Of a DNA stretch of 60,000 nucleotides, positions 27,101-60,000 are shown piece by piece. Within the stretch, counting starts at the first letter, position 1; the number at the start of each line of letters is the position of its first letter. The notes below the pieces were generated by a model. The model did no database searches. It was given only the letters and a program-made list of their open reading frames with translations, and was not told the origin of the DNA. This stretch comes from Lytechinus pictus (lineage: Eukaryota), in contig NC_087245.1 in the NCBI RefSeq assembly GCF_037042905.1, forward strand, positions 12,216,001 to 12,276,000, in the 5' to 3' direction. Made by a program: the position numbers and the translations under genes.

Positions 27101-27269
27101 GGAGTATCGTGGAGGTGGCAAGGGCATTTGCACATACAGACACGACGATGATGATGGAGAGACTGATGGCGGCGATGATGACGGTTGATAGACTGTGTTC
27201 CATGTCATGTGAATGATGATCGGTACTCGAATTCACCGATACATTTTTCGAATCCGTTGATAAATCCAT
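20880..27269 (-). CDS. Orphan class A GPCR, 4 coding exons (27269-26949, 25702-25632, 25285-23799, 21151-20880), 716 aa, very long ICL3
   Basis: Exons join in frame through GT-AG introns (321+71+1487+272=2151 nt). DRY is split across exons 2/3 (GAC AG|A TAC); CWTP in TM6; NPLIY in TM7. Confidence 0.9.
23799..25285 (-). CDS. Orphan GPCR coding exon 3 (TM4, TM5, long ICL3)
   Basis: ttctttaaag|(R)YLTVVWSKRF...KQVALM(G)|gtaagt; corresponds to ORF 23791..25275. Confidence 0.9.
25632..25702 (-). CDS. Orphan GPCR coding exon 2 (TM3)
   Basis: tttttaacag|FNGFCSIAFPVASSFTVLWIAVD(R)|gtaggt; 71 nt, not in the ORF track. Confidence 0.88.
26566..26797 (+). mobile_element. 5'-truncated tRNA-derived SINE with (CAGAAA)n tail
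   Basis: B box GAGTTCGAATCCC followed by a ~200-bp body ending acagaaacagaaacagaaac. Confidence 0.6.
26949..27269 (-). CDS. Orphan GPCR coding exon 1 (N-terminus, TM1-TM2)
   Basis: MDLSTDSKNVSVNSS (N-glycosylation sequons)...TGLCL|gtaggt; acceptor atttcag 4 nt before the ATG. Confidence 0.88.
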
Positions 27270-29527
27270 GATTCTGAAATCAAATCACAATCATTTTGAT
27301 AAATCAATATATCGCCAAAACCTATTATCAGTTTACTCATTTCATAATCCTTATTATTAGCATTGTCTCTTGTAAGGACACATGTGATTAGAAACACATT
27401 TTACAAATTAACATTCTAAAAATAGCAACATACAAGTTTATTAAGTATAGTCAAATATAAAAGTGATATACTTTTCAGTTCATCATGTGATGCCTTAAGG
27501 CTGATCCACAAAACACATAGGTCTATTTTTAATTTGTATGGGAAGAAATTACAAAAAAATTATATCCCTTTTTAGTTTTTTACCAAACTTGCTTGACATA
27601 TCGAACATGTTGAGTGTAACTTTTGAGGTCATTCATATTCAAGTTACTTACCTTTGAGATAAAGATGATGGAAATTTATTAAATCTCAAATATTTTTAAA
27701 GACTTGTTTTATTTGTTTCTACTTACATAATTCTGTCCCTCTTTGTGTATTCTAACTTTCAAAAAAAAAATTAACAAATGATCGTCTCCAGCCTCTAGGC
27801 CGGAAAAAAATCGGCCATGGTGGGTTAAGCTGCCAGGAACACGATCTCCTAAGAAATGTAACAAGATCTCGGTGACAATTTGTAAAAAGTTACATGTATC
27901 GTGTTTAGAACCGGTAATCAATAAAGCAATCAATTATGATAATGTTGCTGACGTATAGAATGTTATTCATTCGACATGTATGTCATCGTCTGACAAAACG
28001 AACGTTTTAACAAAGATCAAAATTAAAATCAACAATGGCAGGACATTCATGATACATGGAGTGCATTTAATTTATCATCAGTGTCTAAACAATATTGAAG
28101 CATGGTCTCCATGTTGTTGTTTTTTTTCTTCAAAATATTCTGTATGTCTCTTTTTTTCATTAAGTGCATGAAGAGAACTAATCATTTTTCAAGGACCAAG
28201 AAGTAGAACCATGACATGTATTTTTCAACGGGTCTAAGTTCAAACGGTTAATAGATCATCTTAACTTACTAGTTACTTCGGATTATTATTGACCATAAAA
28301 CGACAATGACTCGTCTTAGGTGGTTTGTAATAGACTCCTGTACTTGGGCGTGAGCCTTGCATCCATAGACCTACTGAAGATGAAACTATTGCGAGTGTAT
28401 AAACCTTGTATAGTTATCATCTAAAGCCATCCAAAGCATGGTCGGAAATTGTCGAAATCTCGAAGTATATCCGTAGGCTAAATCCTTTTGCCCCGCGGAA
28501 ATATTAAAGTCTTCAAAAAGTATCCAATCGACAAGGGTATGGCATCTCAGACCCTCACAGTATAATTCTATTCAGGTCACAAGCTGATGTCATTCAGTCA
28601 CTGTATATAGCATGTGGTATAATGCCTACATTGCTGTCAAAACAATTAATGTCTTTAAAGCGTTTATTCTGATACCAAAAAAGAACTTCGCCTGCCTCTA
28701 CCATAAATACGAATATTCCACCCCATTAAGTGGTTGGTCACTTCACGATCTAAAATTAACGTCGGTATCACCGAAGAGAGTGCATCATTATTGTATTCTT
28801 GTATCCACTCTGATCGTGCTAATGATCCTTTAATTAGAACAAGGTATTCTTCTTTCGATTCCCCCTTCATGCACAGAAATAGACATGCTAATGAATGATA
28901 TAGAACCAATTCGCAAATTGACAATAAAAGGGAATTTTCCCGAATCAACTGCATCTCTTCATTAGAAAGATTTAATCCCAATTATTTAAGGCTATTTATC
29001 CCCAGTGCAGGAGAGGTGCACACTTTCATTTAAATATTCAGGTCGGCGATGATCATAGCGGTTGAAATACACCTATCCTTGTTCAAATGACGCAATTACA
29101 GTTTCGGCTTTATTATCTGTGTCATTTTGAAACCAAAGCATTATTCAGCTTTATTTGTTTCCTCGTGTTTTGTTTCATTTTTCATATTTTGTCAAATCTG
29201 TTTCGAGTAGGTGTACAGGTGCATTTCAATATTTCTTTTTAACATATTCAGGAGCGAAAAGTAAGGAAAGTAAAAACTCTCATTCCATTTCCACGGACCA
29301 AAGAGATTGATTTTAAATTGCTTTAAGCATTATATTTTCAATTTCTTTTTTATTTCAGTTCTTCAGTTGGCTTATGAAGTTTCCCATAAAAAATATTGTC
29401 TTTTTCAGACGGCGCTGTCTGATTTAAACTTTGGATATGTTTTTAATTTGGAACCGTATGTCTAACGCCTTCTGACGAACAGATAACGGTATCTTGGTGG
29501 CAATATGCATATGTGACAGGACTTAAA

Positions 29528-35283: not shown

Positions 35284-38200
35284 GTGGGTATAACTCATAA
35301 ATTATATTTGAAGGCTTAAATTTGTATTATTTTAACTGATAACTCGATCTTTATTTATGTGTGGCATATTGCAATTATTGCGTGTGCCCCATTCGTAGAT
35401 TCCCGTGTTTGTGATTCGATTGTGTCTTGATAAAGTTCTTAAGTTCGTATTTATTGTAGTCCAAGTTCATGGAAATTTTCTTTCCACCAGCATTACAAAT
35501 ATAAATGAAACGGCAACATGTGAGAACATACAAAAATGGTGAATAATACATGTAAAATAGACAAACAAAATTATGAAATTAGTCAAAAAATCAGAAGACA
35601 AAATTTTTGGTGGTGGTCGCCAGCTGAGCGGGGGCCCCGGGGGGGGGCACTCGACCAAAAAAGTGGTAGGGGTGTGCCACGGGCGATGCAAAAAACGGGG
35701 GCCTTGGAGCGGGTTTATTGTAAAAAGGAGGGTCCTCGGAACGGGCTTCGGAACTACAAATGTTTGTGAAAACGGGGGTCATCGGAACGGATCTCCGTAT
35801 CTCTGTGAGTGCGTATGCATCCCTATGGAACGGGCAATCGTGCATGACGCAGCTAGCGCGGCCTCCGCCGGGTGCGCTCGCGCTTAGGCGATGGTCGAAA
35901 AGCGCTCTACGGCCGCTTTTCACCAAAATTGTAGCAGATCAATGCGACCGGAACGGCGTAACGAAAAATATGCGAAGCTTTGGAGCGGATTTCTTTCTTC
36001 TTTTTTCTCGATAAGAAGGAAATGCTATGCCTTGGAGCGGCTTTCTTTGTTCTTTTTCTCAATAAGACAAAAATGCTATGCCTGGGAACGGAAATTTGAG
36101 TGTAAAAATGGGGGTCCCCTCCGCGGCACATACCCACTATGCATTATATACTGAGTGCCCCCCCCCCCCCCCCCCCCCCGGGGCGGGGACATGTTTGCTC
36201 ACCTGTGACCTTTAACTTAAGATTAGGGCATAATCATAAATTTCTTTGAAATTCAATTACTTTTTCACTTTACGTTTAGAATCCATTGTCATGTGATATA
36301 ATAATGTCGTGAATGTATCGTGTGTGTGATGCTCTAATAATCGATTATGACATTGGATTGTAAAGTTACTCCAATTATCAACTGAAAAAGTTATAAATTT
36401 AAACTGCATGCAGACAATAAGTTATGTAGTTTAATGTTTTATTTTATGTCATGAACAGAGCTAACAGTGAACCCTCCAGAGGGTATTATAGCAGGCCCTG
36501 TCGATGAAAAAAATTTCTTCGAATGGGAGGCTCTGATTACGTGAGTATTTTCTAAAATCTATTCTTTGCTTTGTCACATAAAGTCTGCTTTCATGATTTT
36601 TACATGTATTTGATTATTTTCTTTCGCATTCAGAATATTAGTAGAATATTGTTCTATGATATAACAAACAAAAACTTGTAATGAATTATCTTGTTGACAA
36701 TGAATGGTAAATGCGAACCTCTAATTATTCCCAGCTAAATTACCAAACGTACATGCAAGTATTCTGTAGTAAAAGAACTACTGTTGTTACTAAAGATTTT
36801 TAAACCATCACAACAAAAATACAATGTTATAAAGCAGGATGGGATATTGATAACATACATTTGAATATTTGGAATATGAAGAAAGATGGAGGTGATGGAG
36901 ATGAGATGATTGCAGAGTTGAAACTACATGTAAATCATTGACTCACTATCGTACTTTAAATGAATCAACATTGAACTTTTTCAAAGCCATCAGGGGCAAT
37001 TCCACGAATACAGAATTGGTTGGTGGGGGAATATGGGGCATTATTTTTTACCAGTATTACAAAATACTCTTCAATTATTATTATTTTTAATTAAAGGTCA
37101 AGTCCACCCAGAGTAATTTTAATTTGAATAAATAGAGAAAAATCAAACTGGCATAACGCTGAAAATTTCATCAAAATTGGATGTTAAAATAAGAAAGTTA
37201 CGACATTTTAAATTTTCGCTTATATTTAAAAAAACAGTGATATGCACAATTAAGTGACATTCAAATGAGACAGTCGATGATGTCTTTCACTCACTATTTC
37301 TTTTTTTTATTGTTTGAATGATACAATATTTCATTTTATACATATTTGACAATATGGACCATCTTTGACTTAACCATATAGTATTAAACAATGCTAATTC
37401 CACATTTTCAGGGAGGAATTCAACATTGTTTTACTTGACAATGAGGAGAAAATAAGAATATTTCATATTTCATAAATACAAAGGAAGTAATGAGTGGATG
37501 ACATCATCGGTCTCCTCATTTGCATACCGACCAGGAAAGTCAGCAAAACTTTAAATTATCATAACTTTCTTATTTTACATCCGATTTTGATGAAATTTTC
37601 AGTGTTATGCTCGCTAGATTTTTGTCTTTTTACTTTTGACTAGTCCTTTAATGGGCCTGCTACCACTGAGCCACCATTTTGGTTGAGGCTACATGTAGAA
37701 CTCGTTTTCCTATGTTGAAAGCATATATTTTTCTCCACCGATCATATCTCCCATCATCAGGGGTCCAGAAGGTACATGCTTTGAGGGTGGTGTCTTCCAG
37801 ACAGAACTGAAGTTTCCCAATGACTATCCACTCAACCCTCCTAAGATGCGATTCAAGACAGAGATGTTTCATCCAAATAGTAAGAGGCTTCAGTTTCAAG
37901 GATATCTTTGAAGATTTTGGACAATGATATGTGTCTTACTTATTTTCCTTTAGCTATCACTAATGAACCGAATCTTAAATTATGACATGAACTTACCTCA
38001 CTAGAGACTGAAACAGCAAAGATGCAGGCTGGGGTCTTTGGAACATCTATTTTTGTACAATTCCTACTTAGCTTGTACACAAGCAAATAGGAGGCTGAAT
38101 GTCAAACATTTGTATTGTTCCAAAATGCACCGTTGCACTGTCTTGATGTCATAAAACGCTTTATAGTAAATTCAGGTGCAATACGCTTAGGGTTTACTAC

Positions 38201-39650
38201 CAAATTTGTATTGCTGCTGCAGATCAGATATGCGTTTGAGGGATTTTGCTTTTCGCTTTCAATAATTCTTTTTAAAATTTTCATCTATAAACATAGGAAG
38301 AAGTAGATAATTGTTTGTATTTTTGCTAACGCCTGAGGCATTGTACTACACAAATAAGAAAAAGTGAATTTTCTTATTCATGCAATGGTGCGACATTTCA
38401 CATTCGATAAAAGAAAGAGACAGTCGAGGCTATGCCTCGTTGAATAGAGCATCTTTCTTTCACCTTATGCGACATCTCGCACCATCACACTCACGCCTAT
38501 TCGCTAATTGTATACTATCCATACTAGTCAGTCTCAATACCATCTTCTAAACACCTTGCTCCTTGTTAAAAGATGAATTGTTTGTTTAATATTGATAGTT
38601 TATAAAGATGGTCGAGTATGCATATCAATCCTGCACGCACCTGGCGATGATCCTATGGGATATGAAAGCAGTGCTGAGCGATGGAGTCCTGTACAGAGTG
38701 TTGAAAAGATCCTTCTCTCAGTCGTCAGCATGCTGGCAGGTTTGTTATATATATATATGTATATTACTTTTTATAAGGCAAATAACTGAAAAAATTGTGT
38801 ATAACAGAAAAAAATACTGAGACCTATGTCATAAAACTATTGTAACATTATACATGACTTTTATGATTACTGGAACATGAAGAGCTGATAATTTTGTAAG
38901 TTACATTGTGATTATTATTTCAGATAAATCAAAATTATGACTAGGAATATACTTTGTATTGAAAACTTTATTAGTGAAGTTGTCTAATCACATCTTGCTA
39001 ATTTCAACTTGATGCTACTGATTCTATAATTATTTAGAAAAGTATTCCCTCACCCAATTTTACTTTTTAAATTATTATTATTTTTTTACTGGCATCTTTT
39101 ATCTTTATTATCAATGTTTAATGTCTTGATAAGTAGTATTGTTATCAACCTATAAACCATCTGTCTGTATTACAATTTTCACCTCATTGGCCAGTATTCT
39201 AAACTCGGGTTTAAATTAAACCCTGGTTTAAAGTTGTGGTTTAACTATGGAGAGCCAATTGGAGCACAAATCCCTGACAGTACACATTCAATTCATAAAC
39301 TCATGTTATGAATTGTTTGGGAATGATAACTGAAATATTTTTATTAATTATAAACACAAAAGGAAACGAAAGATTAAACATAAGAAATAGATCGATCTAC
39401 ACAATACAAACATAAATTTTGATTTTTTGGCTTCCATTATTTTAGCATAGAGTTAGACCGTGGTCTAAGTTAAACCTGACTTCAGAATATGGGCCATTGT
39501 ATTTTAAATGCAAAATTATTCTGAATTTTCTCATCAGAACCCAACGATGAAAGTGGAGCAAACGTTGATGCCTCAAAGATGTGGAGAGATGATCGCGAGA
39601 GTTTTAACAGGATAGCGTACGATATTGTAAAGAAATCACTCAGCATGTGA
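35241..39650 (+). CDS. UBE2G2: Ubiquitin-conjugating enzyme E2 G2, 5 coding exons (35241-35283, 36459-36540, 37761-37879, 38599-38739, 39538-39650), 165 aa
   Basis: Spliced product [28 protein letters not shown]...[74 protein letters not shown] motif, catalytic Cys and Ubc7-type acidic loop; 498 nt; all introns GT-AG. Confidence 0.97.
35636..36182. mobile_element. GC-rich MITE with CCCGGGGGGGGGCACTC TIRs in UBE2G2 intron 1; probable 8-bp target duplication
   Basis: gcgggggc|CCCGGGGGGGGGCACTC ... GAGTGCCCC...CCGGG|gcggggac (7/8 match); internal repeated GGAACGG/GGAGCGG motifs. Confidence 0.8.
36459..36540 (+). CDS. UBE2G2: UBE2G2 exon 2
   Basis: aacag|(Q)[26 protein letters not shown](T)|gtgagt. 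Confidence 0.93.
37095..37647. mobile_element. Kolobok-like non-autonomous element with TTAA target duplication in UBE2G2 intron 2
   Basis: ttaa|AGGTCAAGTCCA...GCATAACGCTGAAAATTTCATCAAAATTGGATG vs CATCCGATTTTGATGAAATTTTCAGTGTTATGC...GACTAGTCCT|ttaa; related to 34095-34638. Confidence 0.8.
37761..37879 (+). CDS. UBE2G2: UBE2G2 exon 3
   Basis: catcag|[39 protein letters not shown]|gtaaga. Confidence 0.95.
38599..38739 (+). CDS. UBE2G2: UBE2G2 exon 4 (catalytic Cys)
   Basis: gatag|(I)[46 protein letters not shown]|gtttgt. Confidence 0.95.
39189..39495. mobile_element. PIF/Harbinger-like MITE in UBE2G2 intron 4, 3-bp target duplication ATT
   Basis: att|GGCCAGTATTCTAAACTCGGGTTTAAATTAAACC ... 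GGTCTAAGTTAAACCTGACTTCAGAATATGGGCC|att. Confidence 0.75.
39538..39650 (+). CDS. UBE2G2: UBE2G2 exon 5 (coding part)
   Basis: ctcatcag|(E)[36 protein letters not shown]. Confidence 0.94.
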
Positions 39651-45823: not shown

Positions 45824-46030
45824 CTATGTATCCAACTGACAGAGTAAGGCCACGCCCCTAGCAACCCAGTGAGTCTGTGGTTTTTCTGTTGGTATCTTCA
45901 GCATGAGAACAAAGTTGGTAGAATGTCCAGTGGTTGAGAGAGTACCCCTACGTTCACTGGTCTTGTATAGTGGTGCCTCATACACAGGTTTATCTGGAAG
46001 CTCTGAACGCTTCATTGGTTTCATCCAGAT
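45824..46030 (-). CDS. DNAH7: Dynein heavy chain terminal exon (coding part)
   Basis: attacag|[41 protein letters not shown]...[11 protein letters not shown]. Confidence 0.93.
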
Positions 46031-49000
46031 CTGTAATGGGGATGTGGGATGTAAAGATGAACATGTTAGGATTTATGATTAAGATTTTTATTGGATTAAA
46101 CTTGTATCTATTATTGTACAAAAATTATTCATTCTAAATCACATGAAATTCAATTCTTAAAACTTTACAATCTTAATCTCTACGATATCACATTTATGTA
46201 GAGGTATATTTTAAAAATGCACTGTTTTGGCACAAGTTGTGGGTTGAAAATGATCGCCCAAAAAGTGGTGAAATTTTTGAATTGCGTAAGAAAGCGAGAA
46301 CGGATTATCACAAAATTCTGAAAAAGACTGAGAGAGATAGATGTAATAAAGACTGATAAAATGGCAACTGCGATTGCATCAGGTAGTACCAGATCATTTT
46401 GGTCTGAGCTTAAGAAATACAATAGATCCAAGAATGTCAGTAGATACCCTAATGTTGTTGATGGTGTTCAAGGAAAAGATAGTATAGCTGGAATGTTTGC
46501 TGATAAATTTGACGGGTTATATAACAGTGTATCTTTCAGTGTTATGGATATGGTAGATCTTAAAAATGATATTGATAACTCTGTTGATAATAAATGCAGA
46601 TGCCACGAGTGTGTACAAGATGACCATATAATAACAGAAGAAGAGATATGTAATGCAATAGCTAAGTTGAATGGGTCTAAAAAAGACGATATTAGTGGAT
46701 TAATGTCTGACCATTTAATTCATGGTAAGAAGGTTATCAGTAAATATGTTGCTATGTTATTCACAGGGATGATCTGGCATGAAATGACACCTGACAGCAT
46801 GCTTCGAAGTACAATGATTCCAATTCCGAAAGGACGTTGGGCTAATTTGGGTGATTCGTGCAACTTTCGAGCAATTACGTTAAGTAGTATAATTGGAAAA
46901 GTGTTGGAGTTGGTGATTATGAAAAGATAAATTAATAACCTGTGCACTAGTGAGTTGCAGTTTGGCTTCAAAGAAGGGCTGTCGACAACTATGTGTACCA
47001 GTATGGTAAAAGAGACAGTGTCATACTTTGTTCATGAGAAGAGTAATGTATATGGTCTTGTATTAGACGCAAGCAAAGCCTTTGATAGAGTTAATTTTGT
47101 TAAATTGTTTAAAATCATGTTATGTAAAGGAGTATGTCCCATGTTTTGTAAACTTCTATTGAATATGTATTTGGACCAAAAGATCCGTCTAAGATGGAAC
47201 GGTGTTTATTCTGATTATTTTACTGTCTCTAACGGCGTAAAACAAGGTGGAATATTATCTCCCAGTCTATATTGTTTATATATTGATAGACTTCTGTCTA
47301 AACTCCAAGATAACGGTGAGGGTTGTTTTATGGGACAAGTATTTGCAGGTGCTTTCTCTTATGCTGATGATTTAATCCTACTGTCACCTAGTGTTGTTGC
47401 CCTCAACAGAATGATCCTTATTTGTCAAGATTATGCTTCGGAATATGATATAAAATTCAATAGTGAAAAGAGCCAGCTTATCATATTTACATGTGATAGA
47501 AAAAAGGTAATGGACCCAAAGATTAAAGTCAGTGGTAATCCAGTTCAGGTTGTGGATAGAATTTGTCATCTTGGTCACGTCATCAGTCAGGATATTTTTA
47601 GTGATGATGTTTCCAAACCTATAGGCGACTTTAATCCTCAGTGCAATATGGTTTTAAGCAATTTCAAACATGCCAAGTGTTATTTGCGTAATATTCTGTT
47701 TCAAAAATTTTGTTGTAGTTTTTATGGAACACAGTTATATGCACTATTTGACTCATCTTTGGATGCTTTATTTAGACACTGGAGAATAGCTGTTCGTAGA
47801 GTGTGGAAAGTTCCTTGGCAAACACACAATGTGTTATTACCCTTTTTGGCCAAAACGATGTGCATAAAATTGTGGTTTCATAGAAGATGCTTAAATTTTG
47901 TCTTGTCATCTCTCAAGGCTGATAACATTATTGTATCATATATAACAAAAATTAGTCAGTTTGGTTCATTCTCTGTGCTTGGAGGGAATATCAAATACTT
48001 GAATAGTAAATATATGATGGACCCTAGACAGGTAAATAGGCAGTGGAATAAGGTTCAATGCAACTTAGCTAATGTGGATCGCAAGGTTGAGCAAATTAGG
48101 GAACTCATTACAATGAGGGATGCAAAGGATGTATCTCATTTAACTGAAAGTGAATTGAAAGAACTGATTGCCTTTCTGTGCCTACAGGCATATTAATTCC
48201 TGGTCCTTTTTTTTTTTTTTTTTTTTTGAATGGATGTTTTTAAGTGTATTTTTTATATATTGAATATGTTTGTTTTGTAAATTGAAAAACATGTTTTTAT
48301 GTATATGTGCATTTTTATGCGAATAAAGAAGACTTTGAATTGAATTTGAATTGAATTGAATTTATTATGCAAAAGAATATGCCATTAACGGGTACTACCA
48401 ATAAAACACTAGAGCACTACATTATAACTCCTTGCAACGAAAGATGATTGCTTACATGAACTAATTAAGGTAAAACACTTAGCAAATTTTTTTGGGGAAA
48501 AAAATTATCTTGGTAATTATCTAAAATACATATGAATTTTGCTGTGCATATTTGGCATATGACTTATAATCATCATTCATCATGGATAAAGAATAATAAA
48601 CTGACTTACCACAGGCATTGTGTCATGGAGTACCTTTGGATGAGATTCTCCAATCTGTCGTGTTTTTCGGTCCCATCTGGCACCTTCCATGAACAAGCCT
48701 CTCACATACACACCTGAAAGTTACGGGAGATGAAAACATAACTAAGTTTATACTGCACAAAGACTTTCTGTATTATTACACCTTGGAACCAAAATCATTT
48801 CCATGGTAACTCCTACAAATACCATTACTACTACCACAAACACAACTAATATCACCACTTCTTCCCCAGTTACCCCTACAAAATCTACCACTATCGCCAC
48901 CACTTCAGAGACTTGCAGGAGAGTCTAACAGGGCATTGTGTACAGTAGCAAACCCGAAATAAAAATATCACTGCTACTGCAACTACCAAGACTATAAAAA

Positions 49001-52000
49001 TAAGTACCAATAACTATAAAAACTCCTTAGTCCACTAAAATTACCACTACTGCTATCATTAACATTGCTGTAGGCATCCCAAATGATGGTTTTCTATTGT
49101 TTCTACTGTGGTTTTCTATTACCTCTTTTATTGACAAACTCTTCTTCCCAACTACAAGAAACTAAAATTCTACGGAATTCTATCAAAGGAAAAGTTTTAC
49201 GCAGACATCCAGTCCTTTCAAACATGAAAATAGTTCTTGGCCACCCAATTTTAAACAACTAAATATCTACAGTCCCTACAAAAAATAATGAGTTGCTTAC
49301 CATCTTCGGGTGCCTTTTCGTGTTTCTTGTCATCAAGAACTTCCATGTCATAGCCCAGGAGATCAATGGGTATGGTGAACTTCCTGGCATAGTTCTGCTG
49401 GGCGCCAGTCAAGAAGGCTTGTGTGAAGAAGAAACCAGACATCCAGAACACAGGTGGTGGTCCTACATCATACCAGTCCTGATAAACAAGATCAGATGCA
49501 GATGAAGAAGATACGTCTAATGAGTGTCAATCAAGACATGGAAAGTATCCACTAAACAGAAGGATGCACATGGATGCATTCCACAGATGCATATTTCTAC
49601 AAATACGTTGTAAAACCTCAACAGAAAAGGTTGCTTGAGACCATAAAACTGACCATGATATGGCAGTAATCTTATCAATAAAATGGTTACAGCTAGGACC
49701 ACAAATCATTCCTTGTAAGACCAGGGTCCTGTAACACAAAGCTTAGTGATGAATAGCAAATATGAAATAACACTTCTGATTGGTTCCAAATTAGTATTTT
49801 AAACCAAATGCGCATGTAACATTGATATTGATTGGTCAGCCCATTCAGCGATGGATCGCTAATCTTTTTGTTACTGAGCCCAGATCTTTTTTCATGAGTT
49901 TTTATAAATTTTCAAACTTGTTTTTTATTCTAAGATTTATGCTTACCTGAAGGAACTTGAGCCTTGCTAAGAAGTCATTGACATAGCTACCAAGAGGTTT
50001 GAGTGATGGGTAAGATTTAGTCATCCACATTCCTGGTATCTTGCCCTTCAGGATGCTATTAGCCACATCCTCAAGCTCTGAAGACATCACCACCAAACCC
50101 TGAGAGAAAAATCACATGCAAAGAGGTAAGAAAGTGTAAGATGATATAGAATTCATTATAATATCATATATATAATTCACTCTAATGGGGGATAAATTAA
50201 CCTTTTTTTCAAGTATTTTGCAACATTTGTTTACATTTTGTGGTAGATATTCCTCAAAAAGATATTTGTGAAATATTTTGAAAGCAAAGAGAAGAACAGT
50301 GGGGCATTTCATAAATTCTTGTTGACTGACAAGTTGTCAGACAAATTCCTTGATCTTGATTGGCTAAGTAGCACACATGTCTGACAGTTACCATATTAAC
50401 ATTTGGATAAAATACTTTTTTGGATAAAACATCTGACAAGTCTTTTCATGAAATGCTTCCCTGAAATGAATAAATAGCTTTCAGAGTTAGCAAGGTAGTA
50501 ACAGTAAATGATACCTTGATAGCCTTCTGGATGTTGATGATACTTGATCTAACCACGGCCAGGAGGTTGTTAAACCTTCCCATCTCTTGCACCAGGACAG
50601 TGTTCATACTCTGGGTGTAGGTGGTGGGATACTTGCGTAGTCCGGCCTCAATGTCAAACTGTGGTGGTAGCTTGGCCAGGATGTCAGCAGCAACATCATT
50701 GACGATGTCATCGTTAGACTTAGCACCGCCTCCCGAAGAACGAGACTGAAATCACAAATGAAGTAAACATGTTATCCTCAAATTGTAAATCAGATAATTC
50801 TACAATATTGCAGTTATTCCATATAAGAACCACGCAGAACAACATGCAAATAAACAGGATGAATATAAAGCACATAAGCTGAGCACTAAAAATCAGTTGG
50901 GTAGGCCTGAATGAAGGTTGCTTTAATCTCTGATGTTCAGACAATTTTTTAGCATATTGTAGGCGATTATATTTTTACATTCAAAGTGTGTGTTTCATTT
51001 TAGTTTGTTCCAAATACAGTATTACCATGCACTGCATTCAAGTTTAAAAGTTTAATGACATTGTATCTTCAGAAAAACTTGTGAGGCATACTGGTAAGCT
51101 GTTAACAATTTTCTTATGCCATTTTTCATATTATACCAATATTTACACACAAAAAGTTTAGTATTTGATTAGTATCCATGCCATGCATTACTTTGATGAT
51201 TTCCACCCCTTCCTCCTTTTTTCAGGTGAAAATTTTTCATCACATTTTCATCAAATATGTTAGTGTTAAAAAACATTTTATGCTTCATTCCCTCTCATTT
51301 CTTTCCATGCACACATTTAATTACTCAGAAATCCACAATTGATGTTTGATTAACTTTATAATTTCTTGATAAAATATACCATGTGCACAAATTAAGTGGA
51401 AGGTGTGTGAATATATCAACATTATTATTTTACAAAAATTGTTGAACAGAATTTGAGTGTATGCTGTGTCACAATATTGTGTGGTAAAGGAAACTATTCA
51501 CACATTAACCTTGAAAAAGCTAACTTTTTTTCGAAGCTGATTGTTAATATATAATTTACATATTACCAAATTATATATAGTATTAATGTGCTTATAATGT
51601 GATATACTATCCAGTGCAATACATTTCCCACAAACAAGAAAAACAGTGCTCTGTTTATTTTCTTTTAATTCTAGTGTCACAACGAGGTCAATATATATAC
51701 CGGTATTTAGAGTGAGTCTTATTAATTTCACAACTGCAATATTAAAGTGCAAAATGAAATAAATGTGCAAATTTAAAAATGATTTATTCAATATTATTTG
51801 ATTTTTAAGTTAATTTTTTGACTATTTGATTTTTTTTTCATTTTTAACCGATTGTAGACTGAGCCCACACATACAGTCTCTGGTCTATCAAAATGCATGT
51901 TGTTGTATAATCAGCCAGTTTCCAATGGCTTAACACAATGTTTTTTATTAAAAAAACATTTGCTTTGATGTACATCTGCACTTTGCAACCCATAGATAAG

Positions 52001-55000
52001 TTGACTGGATGAGTTAACCGATTTACAGGTTTCTATCATTTTTCAAACTTAAAACACAATTCATTATTCCTTTTAAATTATTTTCATTGTTTCAAATTTC
52101 CATGCACAAAGCAAAAAAAAAAATCAATTATCAAAAAGTATAAATAAACAGAGGTTAAGTAAAAAACCTTGGTTGTTAGTATCCAAGACATCTCAAATAA
52201 ACCATGGCCATATAAAAAATAAAATAAAGATAATCTCTTGAATAACAATTAAAAAAAACAGGTGCAAGTGTGACATCTGTTTGATTGCTAATAAGGATTA
52301 ACCAACCATCACACCCAACACCTCAAAACATCATACATGAATCATACAATACCTGAGCCTGATGATGACATATTGGGGTTTGGATTTAAATAGTCCGAGA
52401 AGGCAGGGTTGGGGGTAATAGAAGGAGGCAGGTTCATATCACACAGGCAAGTAACATAGTATACCATGCATTTAACCATGTGTTCATGATAGAAAAGATT
52501 TTAGGAAAGGGATATGGAGCATAAAATAAGATGAGGGATAAGGGGAATAAAACATGAAATTGAATTAAATTTATCATTTATGAAATCACTGATAACCATA
52601 TTATCTTGGCAATGCATTTTAGAGCATACCTATACACTCAAATTTTTTTTTCAAATCTCATGTATAAAAAAGAAGGATATTTTGCATTAAGACCATGAGA
52701 CAACAATTTGTCTTGAAAAGCTTGAATATTTGATGAACATTACAGACTGAACAAAGTAATCATCATTTTCATATGTCAAACGAAAAGAATATTGCTGGAG
52801 TAACCCTGTATATAAAGACCAAGCGAGTTAGACATGAAAATCGGTCTGCATATTCAGGTGGTCTTTACTGAAACGTTCTTGTAAATTTTAGCATCAATCA
52901 AGATGTTCCTTACAAATTTAGTATTTTCAGAAAACCATTTGAATCACAGTAATTGCAAAAAATACACGCAGTCTTTTTTCAAGAGACATACTTAAGACAC
53001 AAAACACTGAATATTTTTAAAGTGGAGAAATTCATTTGCAACATATACAAATATATTTTTTAATACAGTACATATAATCACTTCTGCATTTTTAAATGTA
53101 AAATGTCTCTTTCACTGCAAATTTTAATATGGTACTGTGAAATACAATATGTGGCAGATTTTTGTCCAATATAATACAATTATATTAAAAATCATAATTA
53201 TGCCATAGGAGTAAATGAAATATCATCTCTTTCTAATATGTGCAAAAATAAAAATATATTATGTTGCAGCCATATAGAATACATAGTGCATTCAGTTGAA
53301 ACAAGTTGTGGTTTACAGAGTATTTTGGTCAAAAGGTCATACATGTCATATATCCATCTAATGATAAAAACTGTAATATGATACATGTACAGCAAATTTG
53401 TAATATACAGTATTGCCTTTAATGCAACAAACTGCGACGGGAAATAAAGAAATGATTCCTTAAAATTGAACTTGTAATACAATATCCCAGAGTACTGATT
53501 TATCACAATGTCCTGTATTCACACTTTTGAAATTTTGATGTAAACAAAATATTTAACATACAAATATTTTCAAAACCCTCATTCAGAAATATAATCTATG
53601 TTGAAAGGAAATGAAAAGAATAGGGAATCTCTGCATGGTGACTACATGAATACCTACAGTGCAGCCAATAGGGTTTCACTGTGACTTTCTGTAAAGATTA
53701 CAATGCAAAACAGACAAGTCATACCTGAGGATACAAAAGCTGACTGTCCCCATTCTTAGCAAAATCATAAATTAAATTGGAAATCGTTAGTAAGAAAAGA
53801 TAAAGAAAGCTGCAAAATGATTGTTAAAGAAACAGAATAAGTCTTTTAGAGAAAACGACAAGATGAATATTAGTTTGAAGTATTGTTATTAGTAAAGAAA
53901 ACTATCAATGAGCCTTAGAGGAAACATTCTAATTTCATAAAAAAAAATCAAAATATGTTATCAGCCAAGAACAACACAGAATTTAACCGAAGTTGACACT
54001 GTTATTGATAACAAACTTAAACAATTTAATGGTACCACGATACGTTATTAGCAAGGTATCTATTTAGAATGTGTAAAAAAATCAAGAACTATTTGAAAAT
54101 TGTCTGTAAATGTATTCAAGAATTCTTGTGGAGAAGATTGAAACAGCATAGAAGAAGAGTAATGGAGGGTGATTGGAACATAGAGGGGTATTAGAGAGAG
54201 AATAAGAGGGGGAGAAGGGGGAGGGGTGAGGAGACATGATCATATGCAGAAATTTGTCTTCCTAGGGTGAAAAAATATGGACAGTGTTAAAAAATTCAAA
54301 GGTGTGGTTATTTTCTTTAATTATGAATTGAAACATAAGGTGCACTTGGGGTGGACCTTGTGAAAATTTACAATTAAAGAAACTGGTTTTGAAAAAATAA
54401 TGCCCCCTTCCCATCATGACATATAAAACCATACGGGAGAGGGGATAGTGGTGGGTAGAGTGAGGACAAAAATAAGAAGGGGATAGGAGGGGCGAGAAAA
54501 AGGAAGAAAAAAGGAAGAAATGAAGAGGGGGAAAAGAGATATAAGAGGGATACAGATAGGAAAAAATACAAGGGAAGAGATGAAGACACAGAGAGAAAGG
54601 GAAGACAAAAATAGGAAGGACAGAGAGAAGATGAAAGAATACCAACCTTGCTCTGTTGTTCAGCCTGATGACAGATGATTTAGTCACAAAGAGCAGAATT
54701 GAGATGATAATAACAAGCAGGTTGTGATGTGATGCAATATAGGTACATATAAATAGCATAGAAACAATGTGTATGCAAGTAAGAAATTGTTAGAAATAGA
54801 AATACAATAGAGAGAGTATCAAGATCTACATGTATGATGAAAAAGCTTACAAAATTACAGAAAAATGTAATGAAGAGCTAGATATGAATAAAGATGTTAG
54901 GTAGCACAGAAAACAGATATATGACATGAAAAGCAGCAAGTGCATACAAAAGGGAGATTTATAATTAAATGGCTGATGTTAAGCATACAATCAGAGTTAT

Positions 55001-58000
55001 TTAGACACAAAGAATGAATAAAAGGTAAGAGTGCACACTTTAGAGGACTTTAGAGGTTGCAAGGCTGGACCTAAATTATTTTCTTGGATATCTGAAAGGG
55101 TGCTCTTTGGACGTTATTATAGATTAGATCAAAGAATTCAAAGAAATCTTGGGTAAATAGCAATAAAGAAATAAAATAGAGACCAATAGGGAATGATATT
55201 ACCCTTCTTTTCCAATCTCAGTAACCGAGACTTCTTATTCAGTAATACAAGTACAAGTAGGCGTACATCAATCTATCCACTAGGATGAATCATTGTTGGG
55301 AAATCACAGGGAAGTTAATTTACCCTTATTCTAAGACTCTGAATAAGTCAACATTTACATGTAAATGCATTCTTCCTTTTGAATAATATTAAAAACATTT
55401 TACTTTACCAATGAATGATAATGGAATAGGGTTAGAGAATACAGTAGTCAACAGGTTCATGACAAATTTCTATCAGCTTATTCTATGGGTATAAAATCAG
55501 GTGGGTGTTTCATAAAGCTATTCGTAAAGTTACGCACAACTTTACGTACAACTGGGACATTATCTTTGGTGCTAAGTGAGCTATATAGGGATAGTGTGGC
55601 ACAAGAAAGGTCACCAGTCGTGCGTAAAGTCTTGCATAACTTTACAAACAGCTTTATGAACCCACCAGGTGGGTGTTTCATAAAGCTGTTTGTAAGTTAA
55701 GAGCGACTTTAAGAACGACTGGTGATCCTTTCTTACGCGCTAAATAATCACCAATGAACATTTGATGGTGAATATCATTTACCACAAGAAAGGATCACCA
55801 GTCGTTCTTAAAGTCACTCTTAACTTTAATACAAACAGCTTTATGAAACGACCCCCTGGTCAGTGAAGGTATATTATATGATAAATGGGGTATTTCACAC
55901 AGAATTAAGAGTGGCTTGAGGGTCGTACTCATATTCTTAGTTTCACGCAGTAAATAACATTGGTATGCAGTATATCACGCATCTTATTGTTCAGATAAAG
56001 CTAGGATGTACACTACTGCATAATTCTCAATAATAAGATTACATATAAACACCATCTGCACATTGGCTCTACAGCATGACTTAAGTTAAACTTAAGTTTG
56101 TGTGAAACAGCCCCTGACATCACCTATCCATATATCAATTTGTAATCTTTCTGAAAGAGAGAAGACAGACTGACTAAACTGTGCTTTAATTCTTACCTGA
56201 GTAAGAAGAATGTTGTCAAACAAGAGTTTGGTCTCACTCTGATCCTTTGTGATGTCAGCGTTGGCGTGCATGCCAAACACCTCAGGGTGAGGGATGATGG
56301 GAAGGTTCTTGGTGAACGTCAGATAGCTCTCATACTGGATGTCAAACAAAGTATACAAAGCAAAACATAATAAGTTTTCATAGCAAGACATTTTAAAAGA
56401 CAAATAAGATGACAACCAGTACCAATGTTCATGAAAAATGATATCAGTAATAATTGGACATAAGCATAACTTCAAACCTTTTGAACAGGAACTTCCTTTC
56501 AAAAAATTTTATAAAAAGGGGATATTTTCTGTTTTGGTTCATGATATATTAAAAGAGACTGAATCATTATCAATCACAACACTCTCCAGGAGTGGAGAAC
56601 GTGCATACACTATCATATTGTGTGAGGAAAAGTTTAATTGATTCAAATAACATGAGTGATAACAATTTGTAGGTCATGTAGATACACCATTACTGGTTAT
56701 GTCTTGTGAAATATAAAAGACTGATTTTATATACATACAGAATGACAGAATATATCTTCATTATTTTGTTAAAATCATCAAGCAACAAATTATTGTATAG
56801 CTAAATATGAATACTTAAAAAAAAACAGTCCAGGTCGAGACTTACATCGCCAGCAGGAGGGGCATAGTAGGTTCCACTTGAATCAAATTTATAGGACTCA
56901 TCTTCAATCTTAGGAGTGTAGAACTTATCCAGGATGGTGTGGAGGGTACGTCGATCACGATCATCTGTCACACGACCACCATAGTTACACTCACCGGTCA
57001 GGTAGGTCAATGCATCATATGGGATGTCCTAGATGTTTTAATATAAATGTGCAAAGTTGTCATGGGAAGAGTCACAAAGAAAGGGCTAACTGTGTGTAAC
57101 TAACATTGTACTGCCATTGGAGTCTTCATATAAGGCTTGATGAGTTAATACACAAACTGTTTTTGGTTATTACGTATGTATGTAGTACCAACGGAATGTC
57201 TCTTGTGACGGATTGCTTAGTGAGTGTACTGGTATTGAAAGACAAATTATGTATTGCACAATAGATTGTGTTTTGAAAATATCATAATCTTTTGAATAGA
57301 TGATGTTTTGAAAAAAATCATGATATGGGTGGGTTGAAAATCATATTTCACATATTGTCATCTTTCAAATGTTACTCAAGCATATTCCAAATGGCATTTG
57401 AAAGCGTCATGAAATAATGTCATCCTAGAAAATGAAATGAATTAAAGCAAATATTTTCAATTGAAACAAACAAATTGCGACCTCTTAATATCACATTAGA
57501 ATATATGCAACATATTCCCATTGTTTGATATGATAGTGTTTATTCTACAAATATCTATCAGTGTTATGATAATTGCAGGAATGTTAATTCTCTCTTGTCA
57601 AAACTCTAAAGATAAAAATCCTATTTTAATGTAATCTAATAGTTAAAAAATATCTCCAGACAATTCTAAATCCCCAAACAGACTATCGAAGTATAATAAT
57701 AAATAATTGTGACATATTTTTTTATATCAAATTCAAACTCTAATTTTCTTATTTTCAGCTTAGAAGAATCTTTCTACATAAAAAAATCTTACTGGTTGTT
57801 GGCATGCATGAAATCAAATTTATACAATATAAATCAATTGAAAAAAAATCTTGGAAGCTGATATAGTGCTCACCTCATATTCATTAAGGAACATAGCCAG
57901 TTGCCTGACACTGATCCTAAGATCAGTTTCATTGAACTCATAAGGAATGTTCCATCCAAGAGGACCAAACTTACGTCTCTCTTGCACCAAGGCATGGAAG

Positions 58001-59984
58001 AAGCACAGACCATAAAGCATCTTCTTCCATACATGCTGATGATATAGGAAACAAAGATAGAATAGGATTATTAATTCTACTCTTTGACCTTGAAAATACA
58101 TAATTGCATCAAGGGGTTTTGTTTCATACAACTTGTCTATTGATTACAGATTATAGAATCCATACAAATTTGTCAATCAAATGGTGCGAATAACAAGTAA
58201 AGTCATGTGAAAGGGGGACCTAATTTTAAAGGTGCTCTTGCAAACATGGAATAGAGTAGATTTGGTTGAACAGAGATCAGACTCTTCAAAGTAAACAGAC
58301 AAAATTATTGGAGTCCATAGGTTAACAGTGTCAATAGGGGAAAAAAGTTGTGCATAGCTTGGTATCAACAATCTACAATATGAAATAAAATAATGGTAAC
58401 TTTCCAATGGTGGGATCTCTTATCTTGTTCTCTAATCTTTCTAGAATGAACAACTATTAAAGCTTTCACAATTTATTTTCCTTTTAAATCCCCTTCCTTA
58501 TTGAACAAATCCCCTTTTGTTGACTCTTGCTTCTCCGTAATATAAAATTTTGAAAATTTGTTTGTGTTTCCTATAATAACAGGAGTTTTCCCCCTTTTTT
58601 ATACAAAAAAATCCTTATTTCCAAATTTTCCTTCACCGACACCCCGATGCCAAGTGAATGAAAATTTGTTTATAATGGTGGATTTTAATTCATTTTGAGG
58701 GGGGGGTGGGTCTTTAATAGCATAGCTGATATTTTGCAAGATGACGGCTGAAAATTTTGATGAATTGATTTGAGAATCCACAATATATTTTTAAGCATGA
58801 TCACAAAACAATCATAAAGAAATCAACTTCAAGGATAATCGTTAACTAATTTCTTGCCATGTGAATAGAGAGAAGTGTGCTTTGCTTACCTGAGCCTAGA
58901 TATAAGAGGAGGATGCCACAGCATTGCAATAATCAGCATTGTGAGGGGTGGGGTAAACACCACAATCAATAGTGATATACCAGTAGCCAAATAGCAAGAG
59001 TGAGATAAAGAGTGAATGAAAAGAAATGTGGAGAGAAAAATTGTGTACAGGAAAGAGTGTTTGAAGAAAAAAATGCAAGAGAAAGGAAGGGTAAAAAACA
59101 TACATAAAAACAAATCATATGAAAAATCTCAGTAAGTTTTGCAATAAAAAAAATACTACAAACACATTGCTTCAAACAAACACCACAAAAAAGACATTTA
59201 TCCATAGGAGGCTGAAAACCAACCAGCCTCATATTCCCAGTTGAATTAATCACTTGGCAATAGCATCTCTTCTGCTTGATCATTATTTTGGATACTCCCC
59301 CATGGTACGAGTCTATATGATATCATTGTTTTCACAAACTTTTAATTCTGTATTTTTGACAGAGAGAAGATGTGACAACTTTGTGTTTACCAATTTCCCA
59401 ATATTAAGACTTTACAGCAATAACTTAAAATGACATGCTGAATGACATGATTCAAAATCACAACAGAAATTGATACCATGGAGTGGTAGAACCTCCACCA
59501 TCATTCTAAATTCTCACAATACACACACGCAGCAATTGTGTATTTTCTTAAAGCTTAAAAATTGATTTCCTTTTCAAAGACAGTTGGCAACATTGGTATG
59601 ATATACCAATTTAACAAACTTGGGAATTGCAGTTCTCAAGATATCAAAACCAAACAAGCAATGTTTGAAATATACTACTGGCTGAATTTCATGGGTAGAT
59701 TTGTGAATTAAGCAAAACAACACACATTTCGAGAATCAACAAGGCATTTTCACTTCATTTAAGATGCAAAAAGAAGTTCTTACATCAGCCTTGACACTTC
59801 CAAAGAATTCTGGATCTGAGATGGGATCACTGAGGTAAGACTGGATGATGTTAGCTCTGAGACCCTTAGGTGGTTCATTGGTCATCTTGACCCCATTCTG
59901 AAGGACAGCCACAGGAAAGTGAGGGGATGGGTAACTGGTCAGCCATAGACGGAAGTCTGGATGGACCGCCTCTGGGTTCAATTC
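45824..59984 (-). CDS. DNAH7: Axonemal inner-arm dynein heavy chain (DNAH7-like), last 9 constitutive coding exons (AAA6 and C-terminal domain); gene continues beyond the window end
   Basis: Exons 59984-59784, 58035-57874, 57028-56846, 56334-56197, 50745-50515, 50099-49947, 49478-49301, 48713-48610, 46030-45824 join in frame. Motifs [74 protein letters not shown] closely match my recollection of vertebrate DNAH7. Confidence 0.93.
46200..48362 (+). mobile_element. 5'-truncated non-LTR retrotransposon (LINE, probably RTE-X-like), reverse transcriptase region, inactivated
   Basis: ORFs 46361-46930 and 46955-48196 are in the same frame, separated by one TAA at 46928-46930. RT motifs [39 protein letters not shown]. 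Upstream LFWHKLW..RP frame is shifted near 46340. 3' AATAAA then a (TTGAA)n tail at ~48335-48362. The 5' boundary is approximate. Confidence 0.92.
48610..48713 (-). CDS. DNAH7: Dynein heavy chain exon
   Basis: ctttcag|(G)[34 protein letters not shown]|gtaagt; 104 nt. Confidence 0.93.
49301..49478 (-). CDS. DNAH7: Dynein heavy chain exon
   Basis: tttatcag|[33 protein letters not shown]...APED(G)|gtaagc; 178 nt. Confidence 0.93.
49724..49881. mobile_element. PIF/Harbinger-like MITE (dynein intron)
   Basis: gggtcctgtaacacaaagcttagtgat vs atcgctaatctttttgttactgagccc. Confidence 0.6.
49947..50099 (-). CDS. DNAH7: Dynein heavy chain exon
   Basis: ttctctcag|[10 protein letters not shown]...[24 protein letters not shown]|gtaagc; 153 nt. 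Confidence 0.93.
50301..50461. mobile_element. PIF/Harbinger-like MITE (dynein intron)
   Basis: ggggcatttcataaa...ttgtcagac vs tctgacaagtcttttcatgaaatgcttcc. Confidence 0.6.
50515..50745 (-). CDS. DNAH7: Dynein heavy chain exon
   Basis: atttcag|[27 protein letters not shown]...[14 protein letters not shown]...IQKAIK|gtatca; 231 nt, not in the ORF track. Confidence 0.93.
52353..52358 (-). CDS. Candidate 6-nt alternative microexon of dynein (Ala-Gln)
   Basis: atgtcatcatcag|GCTCAG|gtattg, within a phase-0 intron. Confidence 0.35.
53725..53754 (-). CDS. Candidate 30-nt alternative mini-exon of dynein ([10 protein letters not shown])
   Basis: TACTAAC branch point at 53792-53786; first downstream AG is in ttttgctaag; donor CAG|gtatga. 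Confidence 0.45.
54430..54640. repeat. Purine-rich (GA) tract; pyrimidine-rich on the dynein sense strand
   Basis: gggagaggggatag...aaggaagaaaaaaggaagaaatgaagagggggaaaagag. Confidence 0.75.
54647..54664 (-). CDS. Candidate 18-nt alternative microexon of dynein (AEQQSK)
   Basis: tgactaaatcatctgtcatcag|GCTGAACAACAGAGCAAG|gttggt, within a phase-0 intron. Confidence 0.45.
55500..56113. mobile_element. Cluster of three adjacent PIF/Harbinger-like MITEs (55500-55665, 55668-55856, ~55886-56113)
   Basis: GGTGGGTGTTTCATAAAGCT...AGCTTTATGAACCCACC directly abutting a second GGTGGGTGTTTCATAAAGCT...AGCTTTATGAAACGACCCC; third ggggtatttcacacaga...tttgtgtgaaacagcccc. Confidence 0.8.
56197..56334 (-). CDS. 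DNAH7: Dynein heavy chain exon
   Basis: atccag|[46 protein letters not shown]|gtaaga; 138 nt. Confidence 0.93.
56846..57028 (-). CDS. DNAH7: Dynein heavy chain exon
   Basis: catctag|[27 protein letters not shown]...PPAGD|gtaagt; 183 nt. Confidence 0.93.
57874..58035 (-). CDS. DNAH7: Dynein heavy chain exon
   Basis: catcag|[24 protein letters not shown]...FLNEYE|gtgagc; 162 nt. Confidence 0.93.
58890..58895 (-). CDS. Candidate 6-nt alternative microexon of dynein (Ala-Gln)
   Basis: tcctcctcttatatctag|GCTCAG|gtaagc, within a phase-0 intron. Confidence 0.5.
59784..59984 (-). CDS. DNAH7: Dynein heavy chain exon
   Basis: tttctag|[20 protein letters not shown]...FFGSVKAD|gtaaga; 201 nt. Confidence 0.93.
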
Positions 59985-60000
59985 CTAGAAAGGAAACAAA

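What the first reader, a model, noticed from the sequence alone, without database searches (positions are those of the whole stretch)
52353..58895. Set of four candidate in-frame microexons hidden in axonemal dynein (DNAH7-like) introns
Seen: two of the longest dynein introns here contain four short AG...GT-bounded segments of 6, 18, 30 and 6 nt (58895-58890, 54664-54647, 53754-53725, 52358-52353). All are multiples of 3, stop-free and in phase-0 introns. Three lie in the single 5.4-kb intron between ...ILLTQ and SRSSGGG..., the flexible linker after AAA6; the fourth lies in a loop after FFGSVKAD. Knowledge: as I recall, vertebrate DNAH7 is contiguous at both positions (ILLTQSRS), so these would be optional inserts; regulated microexons are typically frame-preserving and fall in surface loops. 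Inference: a combinatorial alternative-splicing cassette that tunes the AAA6/C-terminal linker of a ciliary motor (e.g. sperm versus ciliary band or neurons). This is the best candidate for an undescribed system in the window, but short AG..GT matches can arise by chance.
Basis: partly seen in the sequence, partly recalled or inferred. Interest (0 to 1): 0.8.

Follow-up and report, generated by a model that had tools for sequence, protein, structure and literature searches.

The report
Real microexons at a dynein hinge
Two six-base exons in a sea urchin cilia-motor gene (DNAH7) are spliced into its RNA, and relatives from starfish to salmon and frogs carry optional inserts at one of the same spots, a hinge whose length likely tunes the motor; the 18-base candidate is probably real and the 30-base one is unproven.

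Summary
Both 6-nt segments are real. The hinge one (52358-52353) is in 21 of 21 listed junction reads and in contigs of four further runs. The other (58895-58890) is included in some runs, skipped in others and mixed in one. This species' RefSeq model lacks both, but models of other echinoderms already have them as isoforms. The 18-nt segment has no RNA support here. It shares a rare long AG-free upstream zone with the two proven exons, and a Diadema model has a similar insert: probably real. The 30-nt segment has neither RNA nor homologue support. The site matches the H1-to-cap hinge reported to affect processivity in cytoplasmic dynein, so length tuning is plausible but untested. No paper on these exons was found; the scan noted a different microexon in dynein-2 elsewhere.

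The parts
59784..59984 (-). DNAH7 coding exon ending ...FFGSVKAD (end of AAA6 large subdomain)
   Evidence: Pfam PF03028; intron map; RNA
58898..59127 (-). 230-nt AG-free, pyrimidine-rich zone upstream of microexon 1 (7 YCAY motifs in the last 150 nt; UGC at -43, -33, -28)
58890..58895 (-). Microexon 1, 6 nt, AQ; real and alternatively spliced
   Evidence: included in X11 contig, X14 (2 joint reads plus 4 loose ends), X9 depth 187.8; skipped in X5, X9 depth 112.7 and apparently X1; optional AQ/SQ in echinoderm RefSeq isoforms
57874..58035 (-). DNAH7 coding exon, start of AAA6 lid
   Evidence: PF18198
56846..57028 (-). DNAH7 coding exon, AAA6 lid
   Evidence: PF18198
56197..56334 (-). DNAH7 coding exon ending ...ILLTQ (predicted helix before the hinge)
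54667..54825 (-). 159-nt AG-free zone upstream of the 18-nt candidate
54647..54664 (-). 18-nt candidate exon (AEQQSK); probably real, not seen in RNA
   Evidence: acceptor 5.5, donor 7.6 bits; AG-free zone 159 nt, downstream 87% pyrimidine; Diadema setosum model has AETEGQ at this site; 0 of 21 listed hinge reads
54408..54646 (-). About 240-nt AG-free CT-rich tract downstream of the 18-nt candidate
53786..53792 (-). TACTAAC, a perfect branch-point consensus, 38 nt before the 30-nt candidate
   Evidence: 2 occurrences in 55.9 kb of DNAH7 introns, both in this intron
53725..53754 (-). 30-nt candidate exon ([10 protein letters not shown]); unproven, its 3' end also reads as a zero-length AG|GT site
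   Evidence: acceptor -2.1, donor 9.8, the best donor in the intron; no RNA depth; no such insert among the proteins examined
52361..52588 (-). 228-nt AG-free zone upstream of microexon 2
52353..52358 (-). Microexon 2, 6 nt, AQ, at the hinge; real, the dominant form in all runs laid
   Evidence: X12 2, X13 16, X14 3 reads; contigs of X1, X5, X9, X11; optional in RefSeq of L. variegatus, S. purpuratus, Anneissia, Patiria
50515..50745 (-). DNAH7 coding exon starting SRSSGGG (hinge and start of the C-terminal domain)
   Evidence: PF18199
45824..50099 (-). Last four DNAH7 coding exons (50099-49947, 49478-49301, 48713-48610, 46030-45824 with stop)

Best explanation
The two 6-nt segments are cassette microexons that each add Ala-Gln to the inner-arm dynein DNAH7, one just before the AAA6 lid and one at the hinge before the C-terminal domain, and their regulated inclusion likely adjusts spacer length and would thereby tune how the C-terminal cap and AAA6 move against the motor ring. 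Shown: both are spliced in; exon 1 varies between samples; both are optional in gene models across echinoderms; fishes and amphibians have an optional 4-residue insert at the hinge position. Inferred: the long AG-free pyrimidine zones are the splicing-control regions that let such short exons be recognised; the 18-nt segment is a second, rarely used hinge exon; length matters more than sequence, because inserts of 2, 4 and 6 residues with different sequence recur at one position. Inclusion is high in bulk RNA where DNAH7 is abundant, so use in ordinary motile-ciliated cells is more likely than a neuron-only programme.
For:: joint 50749-56196 with one extra letter, which spells the 6-nt exon between the flanking exons, in 2, 16 and 3 reads and the main X1 contig; read depth at 56230 was 2, 16 and 5; exon 1 both included (187.8) and skipped (112.7) in X9, skipped in X5, included in X11 and X14; exon 2 follows the ILLTQ exon in all four runs. 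AG + this hexamer + GT occurs only twice in 180 kb, at these two places, and neither intron end can supply it. AQ/SQ optional at site 1 in L. variegatus, Patiria, Acanthaster, Asterias rubens; AQ optional at site 2 in L. variegatus, S. purpuratus, Anneissia; tandem SQ+AQ in sea stars; AETEGQ in D. setosum; NNQ and AE in a hemichordate-cluster JGI protein. X1/X2 pairs differing only by 4 residues at site 2 in paddlefish, sterlet, three Oncorhynchus species, bullfrog and leopard frog; site 2 follows a predicted helix (729-740), lies in a low-confidence loop, 290 residues from the C-terminus. PMC4339881 (passages) puts the rat H1/hinge boundary 296 residues from the end and reports that a stiffer hinge lowered processivity in Dictyostelium dynein.
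Against: No functional data for any DNAH7 isoform. The hinge evidence comes from dimeric cytoplasmic dynein, and DNAH7 is a single-headed axonemal motor (recalled). The hinge match rests on distance from the C-terminus and a model with mean pLDDT 53, not on a residue alignment with cytoplasmic dynein (none was listed). No skipped form of exon 2 was listed in any run laid. Tissues of the runs are coded and unknown. Amniotes lack inserts (142 of 143 covering proteins), so the switch is dispensable there. The four AQ combinations in RefSeq may be enumerated from short reads rather than seen on single molecules. Vertebrate and echinoderm inserts share position, not clear sequence, and vertebrate genomic DNA was not examined.
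Confidence: 0.6

Rival explanations
1. The microexons are real but functionally near-neutral: a flexible phase-0 position tolerates short inserts, and exons arose there more than once.
For: Inserts differ in length and sequence between lineages (AQ, SQAQ, AETEGQ, AE, GELT, SDST, SDNT, TDSS, ADNS). Amniotes do without them. The hexamer is close to what both splice sites favour (G first, CAG last), so splice signals could explain its conservation.
Against: AQ is kept at both sites across urchins and sea stars, and at the hinge also in a crinoid. The 4-residue vertebrate insert keeps an acidic second and a Ser/Thr fourth residue from sturgeon to salmon to frog. About 230 nt of AG-free flank is maintained at each exon.
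Confidence: 0.22
2. All four segments form a neuron-specific, SRRM3/4 (eMIC)-type programme that is combined into many DNAH7 isoforms.
For: The 30-nt candidate has the architecture described for such exons in bioRxiv 2024.09.17.613571 (passages): strong branch point, weak acceptor, UGC at -7, strong donor. The 18-nt candidate has UGC at -31 and -55. A rare neuronal isoform would be missed in 21 reads.
Against: Both proven exons are major forms in bulk RNA, and exon 2 has no UGC closer than -47. No read, contig or protein examined carries the 18- or 30-nt sequence. dnah7 was not found in the supplements of two zebrafish srrm3 papers.
Confidence: 0.1
3. The 30-nt candidate is not an exon: its 3' end is a recursive (zero-length AG|GT) splice site used to remove the 5.4-kb intron in steps, or a chance match.
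For: Read as AG|GT it scores 16.6 bits, third of 154 such sites, against 7.7 as a 30-nt exon. Its AG-free zone (53 nt) is reached by 12% of intronic AGs. Unchecked scan notes describe such sites in this genome.
Against: The first AG after the TACTAAC is the 30-nt acceptor, not the AG|GT, which favours the exon reading under a scanning model. The intron is short for recursive splicing (recalled). No RNA joint to this site was listed.
Confidence: 0.5
4. All four segments are chance AG..GT matches, or the extra six bases in reads come from allelic variation at the normal splice sites.
For: 6,696 AG..GT candidates exist in these introns, and score-only tests are not significant.
Against: The same six bases appear at both junctions under two species labels and in several studies, including X11, which has 0 mismatches to the window's exons. 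They differ from both intron ends and match the only two AG-flanked, GT-followed copies.
Confidence: 0.02

Closest known systems
RefSeq DNAH7 isoforms of other echinoderms (L. variegatus XP_041475330/339/348/357, S. purpuratus XP_030830748/749, Patiria XP_038071692-696, Anneissia XP_033097641-645)
   Same: Same AQ inserts at the same two positions, present and absent.
   Different: These are automatic models; the L. pictus models XP_054751844.1 and .2 lack both exons; none examined has the 18- or 30-nt sequence of this window.
Human DYNC2H1 21-nt retina-predominant microexon (PMC7708302, passages; HsaEX0021304 row in PMC9303857 supplements)
   Same: Frame-preserving microexon in a ciliary dynein heavy chain motor domain.
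   Different: Dynein-2 (IFT), in AAA5, 7 residues, tissue-specific and disease-linked; here an axonemal inner-arm dynein, at the AAA6 lid start and C-terminal hinge, 2 residues, tissue pattern unknown.
Esrp-silenced 18-nt exon in S. purpuratus Axndhc15h=DNAH5, SpuEX0003827 (PMC5703972 supplement rows)
   Same: Regulated short exon in a sea urchin axonemal dynein heavy chain.
   Different: Different gene; its position in the protein was not checked; no DNAH7 event was listed in those exon tables.
H1-hinge-CT-cap of cytoplasmic dynein-1 (PMC4339881, passages)
   Same: A disordered hinge of about 20 residues after a helix from AAA6, at a similar distance from the C-terminus (296 versus 290 residues).
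   Different: Studied by engineered truncation or stiffening in dimeric cytoplasmic dynein, not as natural splice variation in an axonemal motor.
SRRM3/4 (eMIC)-dependent neural microexons (bioRxiv 2024.09.17.613571, passages)
   Same: Short, frame-preserving exons with a displaced pyrimidine tract.
   Different: The proven exons here are major forms in bulk RNA; neural restriction and SRRM dependence are untested.

Membership tests
DNAH7 (axonemal inner-arm dynein heavy chain) | Best sequence match to DNAH7 over the C-terminal motor region | tested here: met
   Exon 100% identical to a protein named DNAH7-like; top PDB matches are DNAH7 chains, ahead of DNAH12 and DNAH3
Cassette microexon (6-nt pair) | 3-27 nt, flanked by AG and GT inside an intron, frame-preserving | tested here: met
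Cassette microexon (6-nt pair) | Spliced into mRNA between the flanking exons | tested here: met
Cassette microexon (6-nt pair) | Both included and skipped forms exist | tested here: inconclusive
   Met for exon 1 (X9 both, X5 skip). For exon 2 no skip form was listed in RNA; skipping appears only in gene models
Cassette microexon (6-nt pair) | Conserved in related species | tested here: met
   Protein models of urchins and sea stars for both sites, and a crinoid for site 2; genomic flanks of other species not available
Cassette microexon (6-nt pair) | Falls in a surface loop | tested here: inconclusive
   Site 2 in predicted loop 741-754; site 1 at the start of helix 583-603; model mean pLDDT 53
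Cassette microexon (18-nt candidate) | Spliced into mRNA | tested here: inconclusive
   0 of 21 listed hinge reads; shallow sample, some rows hidden
Cassette microexon (18-nt candidate) | Counterpart in related species | tested here: inconclusive
   One D. setosum model with a 6-residue AE-starting insert, 2 of 6 identical
Cassette microexon (30-nt candidate) | Spliced into mRNA or present in a homologue | tested here: not met
   Mean depth 0 in its bin in three raw runs; no 10-residue insert among 269 proteins measured, 251 covering the site. Rare use is not excluded
SRRM3/4 (eMIC) neural microexons | UGC between branch point and AG | tested here: inconclusive
   Nearest UGC at -28 (exon 1), -31 (18 nt), -7 (30 nt), -47 (exon 2)
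SRRM3/4 (eMIC) neural microexons | Neuron-biased inclusion and dependence on SRRM3/4 | not testable with these tools
   Sample tissues are coded; high inclusion in bulk RNA argues against it for the 6-nt pair
Recursive splice site (30-nt 3' end) | AG|GT with strong acceptor and donor | tested here: met
   6.8 + 9.8 bits
Recursive splice site (30-nt 3' end) | Intermediate junction or saw-tooth in nascent RNA | tested here: inconclusive
   No joint listed; intronic depth near 0 in raw reads, 125 joint rows hidden

The most novel reading that the evidence does not exclude
DNAH7 carries an ancient splicing switch, dating to the deuterostome ancestor, that sets the length of the hinge holding the C-terminal cap: stacked 6-, 12- and 18-nt exons in echinoderms and hemichordates, a homologous 12-nt exon starting small-acidic in fishes and amphibians, lost in amniotes. 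It would let one inner-arm dynein gene supply motors with different force or duty ratio to sperm, larval and adult cilia.
Probability: 0.3. Interest if true: 0.72.

Novelty: new member of a known kind. Interest (0 to 1): 0.5.

Why it matters
How cilia with different beat patterns are built from one set of dynein genes, and how the C-terminal cap regulates dynein, are open questions. Natural isoforms that change only hinge length, kept at one position from echinoderms to amphibians, give a ready test in sea urchin sperm and embryos, a classic motility system. Practically, the L. pictus model misses the dominant hinge form, and standard aligners hide these exons as a one-base mismatch. Microexons as such, including in dyneins, are known, and the two AQ exons already sit in other species' database models.

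Tried and rejected
Splice-site scoring with shuffles did not separate real from chance candidates: the proven exon 2 ranks 194 of 6,696. The run search listed no holder on record as RNA; X1, X5 and X9 are only guessed to be RNA and X11 is of unknown kind, though their contigs are spliced. The first lay was cluttered by a repeat at about 55500-55870, hiding 125 joint rows and 41 between-letter rows, so rare isoforms could be among them. X14 gave the same number of records in both lays and its reads are counted once. A metagenome scan for the 18-nt segment gave one hit without dynein similarity, rejected as chance. Five paralogous dynein stretches were scanned for microexon candidates with AG-free zones of 110 nt or more: four weak ones in L013, outside the two matching introns, and none in the other four. 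One duck model with a 6-residue hinge insert starting VRK looks like intron read-through and was not counted as a microexon. P0057 and P0059 inserts were treated as prediction artefacts. The +2 hinge in Gigantopelta (all 3 isoforms) cannot be called optional. The AlphaFold model was too weak for a fold search. A sequence search of solved structures with the pre-hinge exon listed no cytoplasmic dynein chain. Literature searches and supplement searches found no description of DNAH7 microexons. Of 24 sea-star cluster members only 15 were listed, and large vertebrate clusters were shown 15 at a time.

Full report
Gene. The minus strand of 45824-60000 holds the 3' end of an axonemal dynein heavy chain (Pfam D6 P-loop, AAA lid and C-terminal domains). 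One exon is 100% identical to a protein named DNAH7-like of Lytechinus pictus, and that protein's best PDB matches are DNAH7 chains. Using a L. variegatus protein and 120 kb of adjacent genome I mapped 68 introns of the gene.

Observation. All four segments are at the stated coordinates, bounded by AG and GT, stop-free, in phase-0 introns of 1,748 and 5,451 nt. Splice-site matrices from the gene's own introns rank them 1, 28, 194 and 227 of 6,696 candidates, and shuffles show that score alone is not convincing. The AG-free zone upstream is more telling: 230 nt (58895), 159 (18 nt), 228 (52358) and 53 (30 nt). Constitutive acceptors have a median of 41 and a maximum of 133, and only 8 of 2,594 intronic AGs reach 150, at four places. 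Only 4 of 2,386 intronic AGs carry a microexon reading as good as the 18-nt one.

RNA, hinge site. In one search the aligner reported the joint as 50749-56196 with one extra letter. That is how the 6-nt exon appears, because its first base matches the donor and its last four match the acceptor. It was seen in 2, 16 and 3 raw reads (X12-X14; depth at 56230 was 2, 16 and 5) and in the main X1 contig. In one search the sequence after the ILLTQ exon was the 6-nt exon plus the next exon in X14, X5, X9 and X11, with full agreement, and no skip form was listed. The bins holding the 18- and 30-nt candidates had depth 0 in the three raw runs. With 21 reads, inclusion up to about 13% cannot be excluded, and hid 125 joint rows.

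RNA, first site. The 58895 exon is included in X11 and in X14 (2 joint reads and 4 loose ends, 0 direct). It is skipped in the main X5 contig and, judging by where the piece ends, in X1. X9 has both forms (depth 187.8 included, 112.7 skipped). X5 and X9 carry a second species label and differ from the window at 16 of 687 exon bases (X5). X11 has no differences, which rules out allelic variation at the normal splice sites. The hexamer between AG and GT occurs only at these two places in 180 kb.

Relatives. The L. pictus models lack both exons. L. variegatus isoforms X1-X4 have all four combinations of the two AQ inserts. S. purpuratus and the crinoid Anneissia have optional AQ at the hinge, and two D. 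antillarum models differ by it. Sea stars have optional AQ or SQ at site 1 and tandem SQ+AQ at the hinge. D. setosum has AETEGQ at the hinge. A JGI protein in the hemichordate cluster has NNQ and AE. Sea cucumber and RefSeq hemichordate models showed no insert. AETEGQ could be the counterpart of the 18-nt candidate, or a 12-nt exon plus a variant 6-nt exon; either reading implies a second AE-starting exon in this intron (inference).

Vertebrates. At site 1, none of 198 covering vertebrate proteins is longer. At the hinge, 8 of 24 fish and 4 of 31 amphibian proteins carry 4 extra residues (SDST, SDNT, GELT, TDSS, ADNS), seven times as isoform pairs differing only there. Of 143 covering amniote proteins 142 have none, and the exception looks like intron read-through. 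These counts are proteins, not species, and come from partial cluster listings. The inserts do not end in a codon that could carry the AG of the normal acceptor and do not start with Val, so they look like cassette exons (inference; vertebrate DNA not seen). Common descent with the echinoderm exons rests on position and a small-acidic start only.

Position in the motor. Site 1 lies between the D6 P-loop domain (437-551) and the lid (586-724) of P0001. Site 2 follows residue 744, early in the C-terminal domain (730-1030). A weak model (mean pLDDT 53) puts site 2 in a loop after helix 729-740 and site 1 at the start of helix 583-603. PMC4339881 (passages) describes a disordered hinge of about 20 residues between helix H1 and the C-terminal cap. 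It cuts rat dynein at residue 4348 of 4644 to remove hinge and cap, finds force and run length changed, and cites lower processivity for a stiffer hinge in Dictyostelium. Site 2 is 290 residues from the end, against 296 in rat, so it probably lies at the start of that hinge.

Mechanism. Shown: two frame-preserving 6-nt cassette exons, one variable between samples, both optional in models of relatives. Inferred: long AG-free flanks support their recognition; inclusion changes spacer length at the lid and cap; this would modulate motor output in different ciliated cells. The rival, near-neutral exons in tolerant positions, is not excluded. A neuron-only programme is unlikely for the proven pair, since they are major forms in bulk RNA.

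The two unproven candidates. I put the 18-nt exon at about 0.6 (flank architecture, splice sites, Diadema). I put the 30-nt exon at about 0.3. Against it: a poor acceptor, an ordinary AG-free zone, and no RNA or homologue. For it: one of only two TACTAAC motifs in 56 kb lies 38 nt upstream, a UGC sits at -7, and it has the best donor in the intron. Its end also reads well as a zero-length AG|GT site.

Known versus new. Microexons in dyneins are known: the DYNC2H1 21-nt exon (PMC7708302, passages) and an Esrp-silenced 18-nt exon in an urchin DNAH5-type gene (PMC5703972, supplement rows). Searches for DNAH7 or axonemal dynein with microexon or splicing terms (listings only) and supplements of PMC9303857 and PMC13281805 gave no description of these exons. 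Passages of PMC10987577 and bioRxiv 10.64898/2026.09.05.749416 did not mention DNAH genes. VastDB, subscription papers and bioRxiv supplements were not seen and may list them. Verdict: a real, partly database-known pair of microexons and a new member of a known kind. The added value is the recurrence of optional inserts at the cap hinge from echinoderms to amphibians. Interest 0.5.

Noticed in passing
G000:C1 about 12285960-12310998 (L001-L004), beyond the window: A 25-kb DNAH7 intron holds three long single ORFs on the opposite strand that match rhodopsin-family GPCRs (L002:3127-4296, L003:3559-4563, L003:5215-6315); the L. pictus RefSeq models split the dynein gene in two at this intron.
   Followed up: partly
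L008, extended coordinate 135696-135676 (G000:C1 12351696-12351676, minus strand): A 21-nt optional exon in the DNAH7 tail; a 6-7 residue optional insert occurs there in urchins, sea stars, crinoids and hemichordates. Hemichordates have another 7-10 residue option near residue 1800.
   Followed up: partly
window 55500-55870 and about 55890-56115: Short inverted-repeat (MITE-like) elements inside the hinge intron; the first has many diverged copies in RNA reads.
   Followed up: no
window 52181-52175 and about 52107 (minus strand): A second TACTAAC about 170 nt and a TGCATG about 246 nt downstream of microexon 2; these resemble QKI and Rbfox binding motifs (recalled), candidate enhancers.
   Followed up: no
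L015:2036-8098 (G000:C3): A paralogous dynein has a 6-kb intron almost at the same hinge position; no AG-free zone above 128 nt and no convincing microexon.
   Followed up: partly
window 9894-10949 (+); 20883-27284 (-); 37699-38786 (+): Other apparent genes: a single-exon GPCR-like ORF, a multi-exon GPCR-like gene with a very long loop, and ubiquitin-conjugating-enzyme-like exons; labels are by eye, not searched.
   Followed up: no
P0248 versus P0252 at site 1: Two Diadema species differ by QA versus GP at the start of the lid exon with equal length; cause not examined.
   Followed up: no
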